NCBI GenBank assembly: GCA_050950105.1
Contig: JBMNGZ010000005.1
Span: forward strand, 320,697-384,696
Length of the DNA stretch: 64,000 bases
Source: Candidatus Hydrogenedentales bacterium
Lineage (GTDB): Bacteria > Hydrogenedentota > Hydrogenedentia > Hydrogenedentales > SLHB01
Direction of reading: 5' to 3'
Position numbers and translations under genes: made by a program. Shown piece by piece: positions 9,478 through 14,605 of this stretch; within the stretch, counting starts at the first letter, position 1, and each line of letters opens with the position of its first letter. The notes below the pieces were generated by a model. That model searched no databases, was not told the DNA's origin, and saw nothing but the letters and a program-made list of their open reading frames with translations.

Positions 9478-11526
9478 ATGGACAGCAGACTGAATGTTGA
9501 GGCGTTGAAAGCGAGTCCCGGGCACGGGATCCCCCTTGGGGCTTCGGTGGGCGAAACCGGTGTGCATTTCGCGCTGGTGAGCCGTCATGCCAGGCGCGTG
9601 TGGCTGGCCTTGTTCGACAACCCGGACGACGCGCGTCCCGCCGTGGAGTTCGAGCTGGACGCAGAGCGCAACCGCATCGGCGACGTGTGGAGCATTTTTA
9701 TCGAAAACCTGCATGCGGGCGCGTATTACCTTTTCCGCTTGGACGGGCCCTATGATCCGCCCAAAGGCCACCTCTTCAACCCGGACTGCTATGTGCTCGA
9801 TCCGTATGCGCTGATGGTGACCGGCAGCGTGCAGGATTTCGAGGCCAAGTGCGTGGTCGTCGATATTGAGCGTGGCTGGGAGCCGTATCTCCGGTCGCAA
9901 ACGCGCAAAACGAACTCGATTGTGTACGAGGTGCACATCAAAGGGTTTACCGCGCACGAATCCTCAGGCGTGGGGCATCGCGGGACCTATCGCGGCTTTA
10001 TTGAGAAGATTCCGTATCTCCAGGAGCTGGGCGTCACTGCGGTCGAGCTTATGCCGGTGCAGGAAGTCGGTGAGGAGCAGCTCAAACGCCGGAACCCAAA
10101 GACGGGTGAACGTCTCAAGAACTACTGGGGCTACGCGCCCATCGCGTTTTTTGCTCCGGCCGCGCGATTCGGAAGCAAAGGAGGTATTGGCGAACAATTG
10201 CTCGAATTTCGCGAGCTGGTTTCGGCGTTGCACGAGGCCGGGCTCGAGGTCATTCTCGACGTGGTGTTCAACCACACCGCCGAAGGCGATGAAAAGGGCC
10301 CCACGCTCTGCTTCCGCGGTATCGATCACTCGATCTATTATCTGCTTGATGCTGACGGAAGATGCCTGAACTTTACAGGCTGCGGCAACACGGTGAACTG
10401 CAACCATCCGTTTGTGCGCGACCTGATCGGCGACTGCCTGCGGTACTGGACCACCGTCATGCGGGTCGACGGATTTCGTTTCGATCTGGCGTCGGTTCTC
10501 GGCCGCGATCAAAGCGGGAAACTCGTGGAAAACGCCCCGATCATCGAGCGCATCGCCGAGGACCCTATCCTGCGCGATGTAAAACTCACTGCGGAGGCTT
10601 GGGACGTGGGCGGCGCCTACCAGGTCGGCTCCTTCGGCAACAACGGGCGCTGGTCGGAACTCAACGGCAAGTTTCGCGACGATGTCCGCCGGTATTGGAT
10701 CAATGATCCGGATGCGAAGGGCGCCTTTGCGCTGCGCATCACCGGCAGCCCCGATCTGTACCAGGATGATGGCCGGCGGCCGATTCACAGCGTCAATTTC
10801 GTCACTTCTCATGACGGATTCACCCTGAACGATCTCGTCTCCTACAACAAGAAGCACAACGAGGCCAACGGGGAAGGAAACCGGGATGGGCTGGACCACA
10901 ATCACAGCTACAACTTCGGAGTCGAAGGCGAAACCAATGATCCGGCCATTCTGGCGCTGCGCCTGCAGATGCAACGCAACTTTCTCGCGACCCTTTTCAT
11001 CTCGCTCGGCGTGCCCATGCTTCTCGGGGGCGATGAATTCGGGCGCACTCAGAAAGGCAACAACAACGCTTACTGCCAGGACAACGAGATCTCATGGCAC
11101 GACTGGAGATTGTTGGAGAAAAATGCCGCCCTGTTCCGCTTTTGTAAGGGTATGATCCAGTTTCGTAAAGAAAACGCCGTGTTCGAGCGTTCGACGTTCT
11201 ATACCGGCAACCCGTCGCGGAAAGGCGCTAAACCCGATGTGCGCTGGTTCAGGCCAGACGCTCACGCGCAGGATTGGCAGCCCGCTCAGCCGGCCCTGGG
11301 ATTCTGGATTAATGCCACCGAAAACGACGGCGTCCCTCTCTATCTGTTGTTCAACCCTACGCCGGTCGACATCGAATTCATCCTGCCCAGCGGAGACTGG
11401 TGGCTGCGCGTGAACACCGCCGCTACGTCGCCCGGCGACCTGTATGCGGCCGACAAAGCGCCGCGTGCCGGCGAGACGGGCAAAATGACCGTGGCCGGCC
11501 GTTCGATGGTAATTCTCTCCGGCTGA
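9478..11526 (+). CDS. glgX: Glycogen debranching enzyme (GH13 isoamylase)
   Basis: NYWGY, DVVFNHT, GFRFDLAS (Asp), AEAWD (Glu), SHDGFTL (Asp), GNNNAYCQDN. Confidence 0.95.
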   Translation: MDSRLNVEALKASPGHGIPLGASVGETGVHFALVSRHARRVWLALFDNPDDARPAVEFELDAERNRIGDVWSIFIENLHAGAYYLFRLDGPYDPPKGHLFNPDCYVLDPYALMVTGSVQDFEAKCVVVDIERGWEPYLRSQTRKTNSIVYEVHIKGFTAHESSGVGHRGTYRGFIEKIPYLQELGVTAVELMPVQEVGEEQLKRRNPKTGERLKNYWGYAPIAFFAPAARFGSKGGIGEQLLEFRELVSALHEAGLEVILDVVFNHTAEGDEKGPTLCFRGIDHSIYYLLDADGRCLNFTGCGNTVNCNHPFVRDLIGDCLRYWTTVMRVDGFRFDLASVLGRDQSGKLVENAPIIERIAEDPILRDVKLTAEAWDVGGAYQVGSFGNNGRWSELNGKFRDDVRRYWINDPDAKGAFALRITGSPDLYQDDGRRPIHSVNFVTSHDGFTLNDLVSYNKKHNEANGEGNRDGLDHNHSYNFGVEGETNDPAILALRLQMQRNFLATLFISLGVPMLLGGDEFGRTQKGNNNAYCQDNEISWHDWRLLEKNAALFRFCKGMIQFRKENAVFERSTFYTGNPSRKGAKPDVRWFRPDAHAQDWQPAQPALGFWINATENDGVPLYLLFNPTPVDIEFILPSGDWWLRVNTAATSPGDLYAADKAPRAGETGKMTVAGRSMVILSG

Positions 11527-11584
11527 CAAGCTCCGGGCGCACGTTCGACACATGAGGCCGGCGCCAGTCCGGTCCCGGGCTTGC

Positions 11585-12439
11585 TCACATGGCAGAGAAC
11601 ATGGACTGAAAATCGATTATGGGGGAGGTCTGCATGCGTTGTGCCGCGTTCAGGACGGCTCCGGCCACCGCACAACCGGCCCCAAAGCACAGGGCGGCGG
11701 CGTAGAGGGCCAGGCCGGCTTCAAACACTTTGCGCAGGGTATTGCGCCAGGGCCTTGGGACCGGCAGTCCGGCCATCACGGCCAGCGGCGTCAGGATGAA
11801 GAGGGTCCAGAAAAACAGCGCGCCATCGTATCGCTGGAGCCAGTTCCAGAGACCGGAGAGAACCAGGGCTTCGTTGAACAGCAGGCCGTAGCCGTAATCC
11901 AGGAGCGCGACAAACCCCCACGCCACGTAGCGCAACAACACCGCGCCCAGTATCACGCCCAGCACATACCTGGTCAGGACCCATTTTTCGATGGGAGACG
12001 AAGCACTGCGCCCGGATGCGCGCTGCATAAAGAACAATCCGATGTAAATGACCAGTGCGAATGGCCCGATGAGCAGGCCCAACACGATGGCCCCCAGGCG
12101 CACCTGCGCTGGGCGCCTGCCGGTCTGCTCGCCAATGGCCGCACAGACGCCCAGCCAGCGGCGTTCCTCCTCGAATTGGGTCGCGCGCGCCGCGTCTTGG
12201 TCGAGCGCTTCGGCCAGGCGATGGGCATGATGCGCGGCAGGGCCTACGGCACGCAACGCATGCTCGATATCTTCGTCGCCCGGTATGGCGCCGTCCGGCG
12301 ACGGCACCGCCCTGAGAAGCTCCGAGCGCGCCTTTTTGAGAACGCGCTCGCGCTGGCGTTCGGGCAGATCGCTCATATGTTCGCCCATTCGGCGCAGATA
12401 GCGCCCAATGGCGCGCTCTTGCTGGTCCGTAAGTCTCAT
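11585..12439 (-). CDS. HAAS domain + PspC-like domain membrane protein
   Basis: N-terminal YLRRM..HMSDLPERQRERVL...LRAVGPA (HAAS-like), then RRWLGVCAAIGEQTGRRPAQVRLGAIVLGL (PspC-like) and about 3 more TM helices. ATG 12439 with GGAGG SD. Confidence 0.65.
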   Translation of the reverse strand: MRLTDQQERAIGRYLRRMGEHMSDLPERQRERVLKKARSELLRAVPSPDGAIPGDEDIEHALRAVGPAAHHAHRLAEALDQDAARATQFEEERRWLGVCAAIGEQTGRRPAQVRLGAIVLGLLIGPFALVIYIGLFFMQRASGRSASSPIEKWVLTRYVLGVILGAVLLRYVAWGFVALLDYGYGLLFNEALVLSGLWNWLQRYDGALFFWTLFILTPLAVMAGLPVPRPWRNTLRKVFEAGLALYAAALCFGAGCAVAGAVLNAAQRMQTSPIIDFQSMFSAM

Positions 12440-12572
12440 GCCTCCTCCGCGGTGAAGGAAAGTATACCCCACGCGGAGAAACGGGACCAAATTCGGGAAA
12501 AGACGGCCCTGCGAAACGAAACCGAGCCTCATCAGGGGCGTAAACGGCCCGTGGGGCTACGTCTCAAATGAC

Positions 12573-13469
12573 TTACAGCGCCGCGACTTCGACCCGGCAG
12601 TACCAGTCCGGGACGGGCGTAGCCGGGGTCTCGATTTCTCGCTCCGCAGCGCCGCTTTGAGCGGGTGCCGGAGCACTGTTCGCGGGTATCAGGGCGCTAA
12701 TCGACGCGGCAGCGCGCAGGTCAACGGAAACTACATCGAAGCGCCCACGGGCTTGCTCGACGAAGTCTTTCAGCGGTGTGCAGCCTGTGGCGGAGCCAAT
12801 GGCGGTGGTTTCAACCTGCCGCGCACCGGCTTCCACGGCCGCCAAAGCATGGTGGACGGCCTGGCCGGAGCTGTTGTGGCAGCAGGCCGAGATGATGGCC
12901 CGTGACTCCACGAACTGGACGATGTCGCGCACCATTTCCGTGTAGGCCGCGGTTTTGGCAGTACCCGTGCCGTCGGGGACCGCAATGCGTATCGCGCCCG
13001 CGTTGATGGCAACACCTATGCACTGCCGCCGGAACGGCCGTTCCATGGCCTCCATGCCGTCGATCGAGAACTGGGCCTCGATTCCCTCGGCGCGAACGGC
13101 CGTAACGGCTTTTTCTATTGCGCGGCACCATTCGACGCGCTTTCCGCCACTGCGGGCCGGGTCAGACGGCAGGTACACATGAACCAGTGGTTTCGCGGCA
13201 TGCCTGACGGCGTCGAGCGCGGCGGCGATCTCGGCCGGGTCACAGGCGGCCAAAGCGGCCACTTGGGACGCGCTGATGCTCTTTGCCACGGCGGTGACCA
13301 GGGCGCGTTGCGCCGGGGACTGGGCGGGATGCCCCGCCTCAATGGTTGAAACGCCGGCCTGTTCCAGCACGCGCGCGATGGCGGTGGCCTGGTCTACGGA
13401 AACGGCCGGGCCGGTCCACGCGAAGCGTTGAGACAGCGTGGTATCGTAGATTCGAACTGCTCCGGGCAT
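12573..13469 (-). CDS. 2-isopropylmalate synthase (LeuA/HMGL-like) catalytic-domain homolog, catalytically degenerate
   Basis: Colinear with the LeuA TIM barrel (IYDTTL, IEAG, GAIRIAVPD, IISACCHN, AVEAGARQVE), but RDGEQ, HxH and GERAGN are lost and there is no regulatory domain. SD GAAGGAG. Confidence 0.8.
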   Translation of the reverse strand: MPGAVRIYDTTLSQRFAWTGPAVSVDQATAIARVLEQAGVSTIEAGHPAQSPAQRALVTAVAKSISASQVAALAACDPAEIAAALDAVRHAAKPLVHVYLPSDPARSGGKRVEWCRAIEKAVTAVRAEGIEAQFSIDGMEAMERPFRRQCIGVAINAGAIRIAVPDGTGTAKTAAYTEMVRDIVQFVESRAIISACCHNSSGQAVHHALAAVEAGARQVETTAIGSATGCTPLKDFVEQARGRFDVVSVDLRAAASISALIPANSAPAPAQSGAAEREIETPATPVPDWYCRVEVAAL

Positions 13470-13609
13470 GATAAATCTCCTTCAGACAGAGTCAATGCGG
13501 TGTATGTGGAAAAAGAGCCGTCACACCGCACCAAGCGCCCGGATCTGAGGCCAGGTAGCCCCACATCCATACGACACCACCTCCCTTCAGCGGCCCCCTT
13601 GATGGGACC

Positions 13610-13644
13610 AAAAAAAAGAGCCGCGGGCTTTTTCGGCCCGCGGC
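13610..13644 (-). terminator. Intrinsic terminator (attenuator) upstream of the leuA-like gene
   Basis: Minus strand GCCGCGGGC-cgaaaaa-GCCCGCGGC-TC-T8: 9-bp GC stem followed by 8 U. Confidence 0.9.
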
Positions 13645-13675
13645 CTTGAGTTCCAGAACCCTTACGGGGTGTTGA

Positions 13676-13759
13676 TTAAGGAATTCGAGGCATAATGGGC
13701 CGGCCTTCCTCCACGAGGAGGAGTGAGAGTAGGCGGCTCATATGCTTCGAATTAACCAC
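13676..13759 (-). CDS. Leu-rich attenuator leader peptide (leuL-like), MVNSKHMSRLLSLLLVEEGRPIMPRIP
   Basis: GTG 13759 with AAGGA 8 nt upstream (alternative in-frame ATG 13741); codons CTA CTC TCA CTC CTC CTC; TAA at 13676-13678, about 30 nt before the terminator. Confidence 0.75.
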   Translation of the reverse strand: MVNSKHMSRLLSLLLVEEGRPIMPRIP

Positions 13760-13790
13760 TATGTAAATCCTTCGTCTACTACTTGGAGAG

Positions 13791-13819
13791 ACTATAACAT
13801 CTCTTCCACGTCCCGTCAA
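13791..13819 (-). promoter_or_regulatory. Sigma70-type promoter for the leader/leuA-like transcript
   Basis: TTGACG-17 nt-TATAGT with extended -10 TGn. Confidence 0.8.
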
Positions 13820-13979
13820 ATCTCCTTTTTTCCTGCAAAGGCATCGTGACCCCGGCCAGGCGCGTTACACGGGCCCTTCTATTGAGAAACTGAGGGTTTT
13901 TGTGGCACAGTGAGCGCGCTTGGAGGCCCTTCGTATTGGGATTTTCTGGAATTCTGGCATTGCGGAAGGAGAAGCGACG

Positions 13980-14432
13980 ATGCTCAAAGAGTTCAAAGAG
14001 TTCGCATTGCGCGGAAACGTGGTCGATATGGCAGTAGGTATTGTCATAGGCGGCGCGTTCGGCACCATTGTGAAGAGTCTCGTGGATGATGTGCTGATGC
14101 CTCCCATCGGCTGGGTCGTGGGCGGGGTAGATTTTTCCAATTTCTTCCTGGTCATCAAGGACGGCAGCACTCCGGGACCCTACGTTTCCCTGGGCGCGGC
14201 AAAGACAGCGGGCGCGGTGACCCTCAATTACGGGCTTTTCGCGAATTCCGTGATCAGTTTCCTCATTGTGGCCTTTGCCCTGTTTATGGTCGTCAAGGCA
14301 ATGAATCAGCTGCACCGGACGGGAGAACCCGCAGCCGAACCCGCCACGAAAGACTGCCCGTTCTGCCTGTCGTCGATCCCGCTCAAAGCGAGCCGCTGCC
14401 CGCATTGCACCTCGGCCATTGAGGCGGCCTGA
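13980..14432 (+). CDS. mscL: Large-conductance mechanosensitive channel with C-terminal CxxC-x10-CxxC
   Basis: [41 protein letters not shown]; tail KDCPFC...RCPHC. Confidence 0.95.
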
Positions 14433-14605
14433 GGCGTAACGGACACGCCGACGAGACGAGACCGGGGAGCCGGCCGTGGCGCGACTGAATTCGCCGCATC
14501 GCGGCGTGCAACGCGCACGAAGCCCCGTTCACGTGGGCGCCGTGTGGCGCAGGGCGCTCGGAGCAAAACCTCAGGGCGGGCGATTGCCATTGACGGCGGC
14601 GGCTG

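What the first reader, a model, noticed from the sequence alone, without database searches (positions are those of the whole stretch)
12573..13469. LeuA pseudoenzyme: intact ORF with systematically lost catalytic residues
Seen: the fold is colinear with IPMS, but DTTLRDGEQ reads DTTLSQRFA (Arg, Asp and Gln lost), HCHND reads CCHNS (one metal His lost), FSAED reads FSIDG, and GERAGN is absent. There is no regulatory domain; the protein ends in a low-complexity linker and PDWYCRVEVAAL. The 298-aa frame is open with a strong SD. Known: the DRE motif and HxH bind the metal in DRE-TIM metallolyases. Inference: this is a non-catalytic metabolite sensor or scaffold (for KIV or acetyl-CoA), or a decaying paralog still under leucine control.
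Basis: partly seen in the sequence, partly recalled or inferred. Interest (0 to 1): 0.7.

Follow-up and report, generated by a model that had tools for sequence, protein, structure and literature searches.

The report
Dead but conserved leucine-synthesis enzyme remnant
In one group of Hydrogenedentota bacteria from digesters and sludge, the gene at the usual leuA position now encodes a shortened protein that has lost its catalytic residues, yet natural selection, its leucine-type leader and a conserved tail peptide are all retained, so it looks like an enzyme turned into a non-catalytic protein rather than a dying gene.

Summary
Window 12573-13469 (minus strand) is an intact 298-aa ORF with a confident HMGL-like/IPMS TIM barrel. 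The Arg, the metal Asp, one metal His, the Gln, the PDT Thr and GERAGN are replaced. The whole post-barrel HCS_D2 subdomain, which carries the catalytic His and Tyr, is absent.

It is not a stray paralog. It is the positional ortholog of the intact ~385-405-aa short-form leuA of other Hydrogenedentota: same syntenic block, same Leu-rich leader plus terminator upstream.

It is not decaying. At least seven lineages keep the frame. dN/dS between two lineages that both lack the metal site is 0.27 (CI 0.18-0.41). Strain SNPs give pN/pS 0.18 (p = 4e-4), although they include changes at the former HxH motif. The barrel and the C-terminal WYCRVEVAAL peptide are constrained and the linker is near neutral. 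Similar tails (…VEVAAL, …VEVYSL) end some intact relatives, so the tail predates the catalytic loss.

Best reading: a selectively maintained pseudoenzyme, probably leucine-starvation-induced, that acts by binding through its tail. That mechanism is inferred, not shown. A KIV/metal sensor role is unlikely in this lineage. Whether another IPMS exists in the genome could not be tested because the genome search was shut.

The parts
12573..13469 (-). 298-aa ORF: LeuA-derived TIM barrel, then a linker, then a conserved C-terminal peptide (the pseudoenzyme)
   Evidence: ORF listing. Pfam HMGL-like E = 3.8e-36. AF2 mean pLDDT 82.8 and pTM 0.83. Top Foldseek hits are IPMS catalytic domains 3ewb and 3rmj.
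12690..13469 (-). Residues 1-260: (beta/alpha)8 barrel with a degenerate active site
   Evidence: AF2 secondary structure shows 8 strand/helix pairs. dN/dS is 0.23-0.33.
13419..13445 (-). Residues 9-17, DTTLSQRFA, replacing DTTLRDGEQ. The invariant Arg, the metal Asp, the Glu and the Gln are lost.
   Evidence: Alignments. Residue roles come from PMC11532901.
12870..12884 (-). Residues 196-200, CCHNS, replacing HCHND. The first metal His is lost. A strain allele reads S196 and N198.
   Evidence: Alignments. SNPs at 12884 and 12878 in run X13.
12609..12689 (-). Residues 261-287: variable Pro/Ala-rich linker that takes the place of the HCS_D2 subdomain
   Evidence: pLDDT below 50. dN/dS is 0.5-1.1. 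Length and sequence vary between orthologs.
12573..12608 (-). Residues 288-298, DWYCRVEVAAL, plus the stop codon: the conserved C-terminal peptide
   Evidence: Kept in all family members with synonymous variation (39 synonymous vs 19 non-synonymous pairwise codon differences). Similar tails end the intact enzymes P0112 and P0094.
13477..13482 (-). Shine-Dalgarno AAGGAG of the ORF
   Evidence: Sequence. AAAGGAG is conserved in all orthologs.
13676..13759 (-). Leader ORF (V)VNSKHMSRLLSLLLVEEGRPIMPRIP*, with a Leu run encoded by CTA CTC TCA CTC CTC CTC
   Evidence: Equivalent Leu-rich leaders lie upstream of the intact leuA in L013, L024, L029, L037 and L039, and of the dead P0200.
13610..13645 (-). 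Intrinsic terminator of the leader: a 10-bp GC stem followed by T8
   Evidence: Terminator scan and fold. Conserved in all loci examined.
13791..13819 (-). Promoter-like TTGACG-17-TGtTATAGT
   Evidence: Promoter scan, 10 of 12 positions with an extended -10. TTGAC…TATA(C/G)T is kept in L001 and L003.
13520..13590 (-). Second conserved 5'-UTR element: GGAGGTGGTG followed by ATG (13570) and the short ORF MD[VLS]GL[PS]GL…
   Evidence: Alignments. Present upstream of both intact and dead genes.
11585..12439 (-). Downstream neighbour: 284-aa PspC-domain membrane protein. The adjacency is inherited synteny and is not specific to the dead form.
   Evidence: Pfam PspC E = 1.1e-5. The same neighbour follows intact leuA in L013, L037 and L039.

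Best explanation
This gene is the positional ortholog of the short-form (about 385-405 aa, barrel + HCS_D2) leuA of Hydrogenedentota.

**What happened (shown).** In one clade the gene lost the HCS_D2 subdomain by internal deletion and then most active-site residues. The window's subclade also lost the Arg, the Asp and one His of the metal and 2-oxo-acid site. It therefore cannot make 2-isopropylmalate. It has not been left to decay. Selection keeps an intact TIM barrel and a roughly 10-residue C-terminal peptide (W-x-C-R-V-E-V-A-A-L, general form D/E-hydrophobic-x-x-L-COOH). Some intact relatives also carry that peptide. The two parts are joined by a freely evolving disordered linker.

**Regulation (inferred).** The gene still sits behind the ancestral Leu-rich leader peptide and terminator. 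It is therefore probably made when charged tRNA-Leu is scarce.

**Mechanism (inferred).** The protein is a non-catalytic, leucine-starvation-induced binding or regulatory protein. Its tail is a short linear motif that docks on the same, still unknown, partner that the tail of the active enzymes uses. The barrel acts as the folded body or second interaction surface.

**Status of each step.** Shown: homology, residue loss, orthology, purifying selection, and conservation of leader and tail. Inferred: absence of activity, Leu control, and binding through the tail.
For: **Fold and loss of the active site**
- Fold and homology.
- Catalytic and metal residues replaced, HCS_D2 absent. Residue roles come from PMC11532901: the Arg is essential, and Asp plus two His bind the metal. 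Thr and Gln contact the substrates, and His388 and Tyr399 lie in the post-barrel subdomain.

**Orthology**
- The intact P0112 (L037) and P0077 (L039) lie in the same leuA-PspC-…-GlgX-Peptidase_MA_2-AddA block as the window gene. P0006 (L013), on a short contig, shows only the leader and the PspC neighbour.
- The Leu-rich leader, the terminator and the GGAGGTGGTG element are shared by intact and dead genes.

**Selection**
- dN/dS window vs L022 (both lack Arg, Asp and the first His) is 0.27, bootstrap CI 0.18-0.41. Neighbouring genes give 0.045-0.16.
- L001 vs L003 gives 0.35, CI 0.23-0.53.
- Strain SNPs: 12 synonymous vs 6 non-synonymous, pN/pS 0.18, p = 4e-4, with no indel in the ORF.
- By region: barrel 0.23-0.33, linker 0.5-1.1, tail about 0.1 in deep pairs.
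- Tail codons vary synonymously.

**Phylogeny and pattern of loss**
- The tree gives a monophyletic clade (98-100 SH-aLRT) on a stem of about 3.9 substitutions per site, followed by short branches.
- Catalytic positions are lost in a mosaic pattern: P0192 keeps R-D but lost both His, P0322 lost R and both His, and P0002-P0004 keep R, D/E and HxH. This pattern means the selected function does not use the old site.

**Tail**
- The tail also ends intact enzymes (P0112 …ISVEVAAL, P0094 …RVEVYSL and about 8 others ending in Leu).
- AF2 leaves the tail undocked and disordered in the monomer. This fits an intermolecular motif.
Against: - No direct evidence of a protein product or of a binding partner.
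- Expression evidence is weak. Metatranscriptome contigs cover an ortholog at the same low depth as the intergenic DNA, and the 'RNA' run X13 looks like DNA.
- dN/dS is 2-6 times higher than in neighbouring genes, so constraint is relaxed.
- One low-coverage variant (P0008, L041) carries three in-frame deletions that must destroy the barrel. At least one lineage may therefore be losing the gene, or only the tail matters.
- Simple folding does not recover an antiterminator in the window's leader, so Leu control is not proven.
- P0002-P0004 keep Arg, Asp/Glu and HxH, so a residual metal or ligand function in those lineages is not excluded.
Confidence: 0.6

Rival explanations
1. A slowly decaying relic. 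leuA became dispensable, for example through leucine auxotrophy in amino-acid-rich digesters, and the remnant has simply not yet been interrupted.
For: - Very long stem branch in the tree.
- dN/dS is higher than in neighbours.
- Former catalytic positions drift, with C, S and H at position 196 and H198N between strains.
- The P0008/L041 variant carries three large deletions.
- The Pfam score falls stepwise from 270 bits (intact P0006) to 165, 151 and 125 bits.
Against: - The frame is intact in seven or more diverged lineages, where dS reaches 0.4-1.4.
- dN/dS is 0.27 within the subclade that already lacks the metal site, with the CI excluding 1.
- pN/pS among strains is 0.18, p = 4e-4.
- The tail is kept by synonymous-only change.
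- Leader and SD are conserved almost to the base.
Confidence: 0.12
2. A divergent enzyme. The bare DRE-TIM barrel has taken on another reaction, such as a lyase, aldolase, decarboxylase or thioester hydrolase, that does not need HCS_D2.
For: - P0002, P0003 and P0004 keep Arg, Asp/Glu, HxH and Asn.
- Other DRE-TIM enzymes (HMG-CoA lyase, 4-hydroxy-2-oxovalerate aldolase) work as barrels without that subdomain. They appear as weaker structural matches.
Against: - In the window protein and in L022 the invariant Arg, the metal Asp and the first His are all gone. Substituting this Arg abolished activity in MAMS, and similar losses are reported across the superfamily (PMC11532901).
- The last His is polymorphic.
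- Different lineages lost different ligands, yet all remain under similar constraint.
- No new conserved polar cluster at the barrel mouth was seen in the alignment.
Confidence: 0.13
3. The ORF is kept open only so that translation continues and the downstream PspC-domain gene is expressed from the leucine-controlled promoter. The protein itself has no role.
For: The PspC-domain gene always follows on the same strand after a 130-270 nt gap, and no terminator was found between the two.
Against: - Such selection would remove stops and frameshifts but not missense changes. Observed dN/dS is 0.25 in the barrel and about 0.1 in the tail.
- The same adjacency exists next to intact leuA.
- P0322 has a different downstream gene.
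Confidence: 0.05
4. A partner subunit of an active IPMS encoded elsewhere. The dead barrel would form a heterodimer and modulate that enzyme, acting as a dominant-negative or regulatory subunit.
For: - IPMS and homocitrate synthases are dimers in which the post-barrel subdomain of one chain completes the active site of the other (established knowledge of the family).
- Both intact and dead forms carry the same type of tail.
Against: - No second leuA was seen in the 64-kb window or in the about 20-kb loci of relatives.
- The gene occupies the leuA locus itself, so a second copy is not implied.
- The whole genome could not be searched.
Confidence: 0.1

Closest known systems
Bacterial 2-isopropylmalate synthase (LeuA, EC 2.3.3.13), specifically the short-form Hydrogenedentota LeuA of about 385-405 aa (HMGL-like + HCS_D2, no LeuA_dimer domain; e.g. 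P0006, P0112, P0077)
   Same: - Same TIM-barrel fold.
- 36-45% identity in the barrel.
- Same chromosomal position.
- Same Leu-rich leader, terminator and 5'-UTR element.
- Same kind of C-terminal tail as a subset of these enzymes.
   Different: - No HCS_D2 subdomain, so no catalytic His or Tyr.
- Arg, metal Asp, first metal His, Gln, Thr and GERAGN are replaced, and the SDIH loop is deleted.
- NCBIfam score is 137 bits against a cut-off of 532.
Truncated catalytic-domain constructs of IPMS (PDB 3ewb, 3rmj, 3eeg)
   Same: They are the best structural matches, with TM about 0.8 and rmsd 2.3-2.5 Å over about 270 residues.
   Different: They are laboratory truncations of active enzymes with complete active-site residues. 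This is a natural protein with a degenerate site and an added linker and tail.
Pseudoenzymes in general (catalytically dead homologs kept for regulatory or scaffold roles)
   Same: - Homology to an enzyme family.
- Systematic loss of catalytic residues.
- Purifying selection.
- Mosaic loss of different ligands in different lineages.
   Different: - I found no description of a dead IPMS or DRE-TIM member (0 papers with both 'pseudoenzyme' and 'isopropylmalate synthase').
- Here the dead form replaces the enzyme at its own locus rather than arising as an extra copy.
Plant IPMS derivatives that lost the regulatory domain (methylthioalkylmalate synthase)
   Same: Evolution from IPMS by loss of a C-terminal domain together with active-site substitutions (PMC11532901).
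   Different: MAMS keeps all catalytic residues and the post-barrel subdomain and is an active enzyme.
Leader-peptide control of leuA (E. coli leuL attenuator; actinobacterial 'LEU element', PMC1262725)
   Same: An upstream short ORF with a run of Leu codons, followed by RNA structure. The Leu-codon run CUCCUCC is complementary to GGAGG-type sequences, as in the LEU element.
   Different: No Rfam family matches. The Hydrogenedentota leader has its own conserved peptide (…NSKH…LLL.EE..P..PRI.*) and a second conserved element. Its mechanism is untested.

Membership tests
2-isopropylmalate synthase / Claisen-condensing DRE-TIM metallolyases | HMGL-like (beta/alpha)8 barrel | tested here: met
   Pfam PF00682 E = 3.8e-36. 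AF2 pLDDT 82.8. Foldseek to 3ewb and 3rmj, E = 1e-20.
2-isopropylmalate synthase / Claisen-condensing DRE-TIM metallolyases | Invariant active-site Arg of DTTLRDGEQ | tested here: not met
   Ser13 in the window protein and in L022. Substituting this Arg abolished activity in MAMS, with similar losses reported across the superfamily (PMC11532901).
2-isopropylmalate synthase / Claisen-condensing DRE-TIM metallolyases | Divalent-metal triad: Asp (RDG) plus His-x-His | tested here: not met
   Gln14, Cys196 and His198. Only one of the three ligands is left, and it is Asn in a strain allele.
2-isopropylmalate synthase / Claisen-condensing DRE-TIM metallolyases | Post-barrel subdomain (HCS_D2, PF22617) with the HxSGIHQDG catalytic His and the stacking Tyr | tested here: not met
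   No PF22617 match. The region is replaced by a 27-residue linker.
2-isopropylmalate synthase / Claisen-condensing DRE-TIM metallolyases | Glu of FSxED, Thr of PDTVG, and the GERAGN loop | tested here: not met
   FSIDG (Glu->Asp here, Ala or Gly in orthologs), PDGTG and GSATGC.
2-isopropylmalate synthase / Claisen-condensing DRE-TIM metallolyases | Score above the curated equivalog cut-off | tested here: not met
   NF002086 scores 137 bits against a cut-off of 532. All other LeuA models are also far below their cut-offs.
2-isopropylmalate synthase / Claisen-condensing DRE-TIM metallolyases | Condensation of 2-oxoisovalerate with acetyl-CoA | not testable with these tools
   Needs an enzyme assay.
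Ortholog of Hydrogenedentota short-form leuA (by descent) | Same locus and same leader as intact leuA; nested within that family in a tree | tested here: met
   Synteny. Leader. Trees.
Pseudoenzyme (maintained non-catalytic homolog) | Purifying selection on the coding sequence after loss of the catalytic residues | tested here: met
   dN/dS 0.27, CI 0.18-0.41, between two 'dead' lineages. pN/pS 0.18, p = 4e-4.
Pseudoenzyme (maintained non-catalytic homolog) | Protein is expressed and lacks activity | tested here: inconclusive
   Metatranscriptome contigs cover an ortholog, but at the same depth as flanking DNA. Activity is not testable here.
Pseudogene | Frameshifts or stops, and dN/dS near 1 | tested here: not met
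   The frame is open in all full-length members. No indel in the ORF among strains. Omega is well below 1. The exception is P0008, with three in-frame deletions.
Leader-peptide transcription attenuator (Leu) | Short ORF with a run of Leu codons followed by an intrinsic terminator, conserved across species | tested here: met
Leader-peptide transcription attenuator (Leu) | Mutually exclusive antiterminator structure; response to leucine | tested here: inconclusive
   A constrained fold gives an antiterminator in L013 but not in the window or L001. The response to leucine is not testable here.

The most novel reading that the evidence does not exclude
A whole clade of Hydrogenedentota has turned its own leuA into a leucine-starvation-induced signalling or adaptor protein. 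The catalytic machinery was discarded. The leucine-sensing leader, the barrel and a D/E-hydrophobic-x-x-L-COOH docking peptide were kept. The old biosynthetic gene would then serve as a read-out of leucine supply in what may be a leucine auxotroph. This would be the first bacterial DRE-TIM pseudoenzyme. It would also reveal an unrecognised C-terminal docking motif shared with active short-form IPMS.
Probability: 0.3. Interest if true: 0.75.

Novelty: new variant of a known kind. Interest (0 to 1): 0.58.

Why it matters
Bacterial pseudoenzymes are rarely documented, and I found none described for the IPMS/DRE-TIM family. In this case the dead form replaces the enzyme at its own regulated locus. 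Natural lineages have lost different subsets of catalytic residues while staying under selection. That makes a clean system for asking what a TIM-barrel enzyme is kept for once chemistry is gone.

There are practical consequences too. These genes are at risk of being counted as 'LeuA' in metabolic reconstructions of Hydrogenedentota from digesters, which would wrongly predict leucine prototrophy.

The work also exposes two features of the active enzymes that deserve study. One is a phylum-specific Leu-leader element. The other is a conserved C-terminal tail.

Tried and rejected
- **Whole-genome search for a canonical leuA, cimA or leuBCD.** The tool was shut. tblastn of intact LeuAs against the window and all loci found only this gene. 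Pfam scans of the window's other large ORFs found no leu or ilv genes.
- **Functional link to the PspC-domain neighbour, or a 'HAAS-PadR-like' system with LeuA in place of PadR.** Dropped for three reasons. The HAAS match is below threshold (E = 0.05). The same neighbour follows intact leuA in a conserved block. P0322 has another neighbour.
- **Tail as a compartment-targeting, encapsulin or RiPP-type peptide.** No other ORF in the window or in the 23 loci held at that point (L001-L023) ends in a similar motif, and there are no modifying enzymes nearby. No support.
- **Tail docking into the barrel.** Two AF2 runs, one with a mixed alignment and one with a family-only alignment, leave residues 265-298 at pLDDT below 50.
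- **Rfam.** No family matches at gathering threshold, and only chance-level hits in the leader.
- **Expression.** Run X13, labelled RNA-Seq, has flat depth over genes and spacers and behaves like DNA. X25 covers an ortholog at the depth of its flanks. Both are inconclusive.
- **Origin of the tail.** MAFFT once aligned the tail to the HCS_D2 segment DPxxYEFVPP. I consider homology to the C-terminal tails of intact enzymes (…SVEVAAL) more likely, but this is not settled.
- **Single or multiple origin of the more distant truncated forms (P0200, P0322, P0198).** The tree joins them only weakly, on long branches. Unresolved.
Full report
**What is there**

The ORF lies on the minus strand, 12573-13469. 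It is 298 aa, with ATG at 13469 and AAGGAG 7 nt upstream.
- It matches Pfam HMGL-like over residues 5-260 (E = 3.8e-36).
- Its best curated-family and PDB matches are bacterial 2-isopropylmalate synthases (IPMS), but the scores are far below the equivalog cut-offs, 137 vs 532 bits.
- AlphaFold2 gives a confident (beta/alpha)8 barrel (mean pLDDT 82.8, pTM 0.83). Residues 266-298 are disordered.
- Foldseek puts IPMS catalytic domains first: 3ewb and 3rmj, TM about 0.8.

- DTTLRDGEQ reads DTTLSQRFA.
- HCHND reads CCHNS.
- FSxED reads FSIDG.
- PDTVG reads PDGTG.
- GERAGN reads GSATGC.
- The SDIH loop is deleted.
- There is neither an HCS_D2 subdomain nor a LeuA_dimer domain.

A mutational and structural study of the closely related methylthioalkylmalate synthase gives the roles of these residues (PMC11532901).
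- The Arg is invariant in DRE-TIM metallolyases and essential.
- Asp plus the two His bind the metal.
- Thr and Gln contact the substrates.
- The catalytic His and its stacking Tyr lie in the post-barrel subdomain.

In the window protein only one of these residues (His198) remains.

**Relatives**

A word-indexed search found only a handful of close homologs, 55-99% identical (P0001-P0005, P0008). After those come canonical IPMS at 35% identity or less. Scans of genome and metagenome collections added more lineages. All full-length ones are 298-303 aa and come from Hydrogenedentota MAGs or digester, sludge and bioreactor metagenomes. One contig is binned as Nitrospiraceae, which is probably a mis-binning.

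An exhaustive profile search of 1.84 billion representatives added more diverged truncated members: P0192, P0193, P0200, P0322 and P0198.

A query with the nearest intact relative (P0006, 393 aa) uncovered a large family of about 380-406-aa 'short-form' IPMS. They have HMGL-like + HCS_D2 and no regulatory domain, and many are annotated as Hydrogenedentes 2-isopropylmalate synthase. In trees the dead proteins form one well-supported clade nested in this family. The clade sits on a stem of about 3.9 substitutions per site, against a median tip of 0.17.

**Ortholog, not paralog**

All dead-form loci with long enough contigs share the block MscL | about 510-nt spacer | HMGL-like | PspC-domain gene | (HEAT gene in some) | GlgX | Peptidase_MA_2 | AddA | AddB. 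The intact enzymes P0112 (L037) and P0077 (L039) lie in the same leuA-PspC-…-GlgX-Peptidase_MA_2(-AddA) block. P0006 (L013), on a short contig, is likewise followed by a PspC-domain gene. GlgX is about 55% identical between these genomes and the window, against 88% within the dead clade.

The window gene therefore occupies the leuA locus itself. It also follows that the PspC adjacency, which I first took for a functional clue, is inherited synteny.

**Regulatory region**

On the minus strand upstream of the ORF there are four elements.
- A promoter-like TTGACG-17-TGtTATAGT (13819-13791).
- A 27-codon leader ORF (13759-13676) encoding VNSKHMSRLLSLLLVEEGRPIMPRIP.
- A 10-bp GC hairpin with T8 (13645-13610).
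- A second conserved element, GGAGGTGGTG plus a short ORF MD.GL.GL… (about 13590-13520).

This stretch is almost base-identical between the window, L001 and L003, although synonymous divergence in the flanking genes is about 0.7.

Equivalent leaders stand before intact leuA in L013, L024, L029, L037 and L039, and before the dead P0200. All have an LLL run, a following terminator hairpin and the GGAGGTGGTG element. Examples are MFNSKHTLGLLLPLLLVEESGPAVPRIL and MCNSKQILGLRLPLLLVEERGPDMPRITL. No Rfam family matches.

The arrangement recalls leuL-type attenuators and the actinobacterial LEU element (PMC1262725). A simple constrained fold recovers an antiterminator in L013 but not in the window, so the mechanism is plausible but unproven. 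The cross-species conservation shown here adds to it.

**Selection**

| Comparison | dN/dS of this gene | dN/dS of neighbours |
|---|---|---|
| Window vs L001, L003, L012 | 0.25-0.45 | 0.03-0.21 |
| Window vs L022 (82% identity; both have SQRF and lack the first His) | 0.27 (bootstrap 95% CI 0.18-0.41) | 0.045-0.16 |
| L001 vs L003 | 0.35 (CI 0.23-0.53) | not compared in this call |

The window-L022 comparison is the key one, because both lineages have already lost the metal site.

Contigs of a public run laid on the window show a co-occurring strain with 18 SNPs in the ORF. Twelve are synonymous and 6 are not (pN/pS 0.18, binomial p = 4e-4). There is no indel inside the ORF. Three of the six non-synonymous changes fall in or next to the former HxH motif: C196S, H198N and H206Q.

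By region, the barrel has omega 0.23-0.33, the linker 0.5-1.1 and the tail about 0.1 in deep comparisons. The tail codons differ mostly synonymously (39 vs 19 pairwise differences).

I also took 67 barrel positions that are at least 97% invariant in 120 intact relatives. Of these, 29 (mainly Gly, Ala, Pro and buried residues) are kept in all six family members compared. Another 22 are replaced in all six, and 16 in some.

Different lineages have lost different ligands.
- P0002-P0004 keep Arg, Asp/Glu and HxH.
- The window and L022 lost Arg, Asp and the first His.
- P0192 keeps Arg-Asp but lost both His.
- P0322 lost Arg and both His.

This combination means the selected function does not reside in the old active site: a constrained fold and tail, a neutral linker, and drifting catalytic positions.

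**The tail**

Every member ends in W-[YHR]-C-[RLT]-V-E-V-A-[AST]-L, or a looser A-V-E-V-A-F-L or A-D-V-Y-M-L, after a variable linker.

About ten intact short-form enzymes of 395-409 aa also carry a Pro-rich extension ending in a similar motif. Examples are …ISVEVAAL, …RVEVYSL, …RFEEVMLL and …AVDLCSL, all with a C-terminal Leu. The tail is therefore older than the catalytic loss.

AF2 does not dock it on the barrel with either alignment. No other ORF in the window or in the 23 loci held at that point carries it.

I read it as a short linear motif for an unknown partner. Candidate classes are C-terminus-recognising unfoldases or proteases, and PDZ, TPR or HEAT-type modules. This is inference.

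**Caveats**
- I could not search the genome for another IPMS or for leuBCD. There are none in the window.
- Expression evidence is inconclusive.
- One low-coverage contig (L041, P0008) carries a 165-aa version with three in-frame deletions that must destroy the barrel, yet it keeps …DWRCRVEVAAL in frame. Either that lineage is losing the gene or the tail matters most.
- Whether P0200, P0322 and P0198 share the origin of the core clade is unresolved.

**Verdict**

The 'decaying paralog' reading and the 'KIV/acetyl-CoA sensor' reading are not supported for this lineage.

A literature search found no description of a dead IPMS. I rate it a new variant of a known kind, a bacterial pseudoenzyme, of moderate to good interest.

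Noticed in passing
window 13610-13819 (-); also L013, L024, L029, L037, L039, L042 upstream regions: A phylum-wide leuA leader in Hydrogenedentota. It has a conserved peptide …NSKH…L(L)L.LLL(V/T)EE..P..PRI.* with a Leu run, followed by a GC hairpin and a U-run. There is no Rfam match. Within the dead clade it is nearly base-identical despite dS of about 0.7 in the flanking genes.
   Followed up: partly
window 13520-13590 (-): A second conserved 5'-UTR element lies after the terminator: GGAGGTGGTG plus ATG, opening a short ORF MD[VLS]GL[PS]GL[RQ]S… that runs over the leuA start in another frame. It is present before both intact and dead genes. The Leu-codon run CUCCUCC is complementary to the GGAGG core, as in the actinobacterial LEU element.
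   Followed up: partly
P0112 (L037:6001-7209), P0094, P0080 (L024:5001-6221), P0083, P0099, P0085, P0127, P0136, P0084, P0076: A subset of intact short-form IPMS carries a Pro-rich C-terminal extension ending in D/E-hydrophobic-x-x-Leu-COOH (for example ISVEVAAL and RVEVYSL). This feature of active enzymes has no known role.
   Followed up: partly
L041:1266-1763 (P0008): A 165-aa variant with three in-frame deletions (about 52, 8 and 82 residues) that remove barrel elements. It still reads through to DWRCRVEVAAL. The contig is a single 1.8-kb contig at 2x coverage, with a different upstream gene (an enoyl-CoA hydratase) that abuts the leader.
   Followed up: partly
window 12852-12903: A co-occurring strain allele in run X13 has 5 differences within 52 nt. 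Three are non-synonymous (C196S, H198N, H206Q), forming a locally hypervariable patch at the former HxH motif.
   Followed up: partly
L001:12152-13123, L003:12084-13055: A 323-aa HEAT-repeat gene lies between the PspC-domain gene and glgX in the P0002 and P0003 lineages. It is absent from the window and from L009.
   Followed up: no
window 13980-14432 (+): The divergently transcribed MscL (150 aa) ends in a CPFC…CPHC zinc-ribbon-like extension.
   Followed up: no
window 11585-12439 (-): The PspC-domain protein has a weak HAAS-like N-terminus (E = 0.05), but no PadR-type regulator lies next to it, unlike the HAAS-PadR dyads described in PMC11237479.
   Followed up: partly
run X13 on window 11000-14600: The library is labelled 'METAGENOMIC RNA-Seq' but has flat depth (about 24x) over genes and spacers alike. 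It behaves like DNA and should not be used as expression evidence.
   Followed up: yes
L017 (CAZFOG010000363.1): A contig carrying the P0004-type gene is deposited in a bin named 'uncultured Nitrospiraceae bacterium'. Gene content and similarity suggest a mis-binned Hydrogenedentota contig.
   Followed up: no
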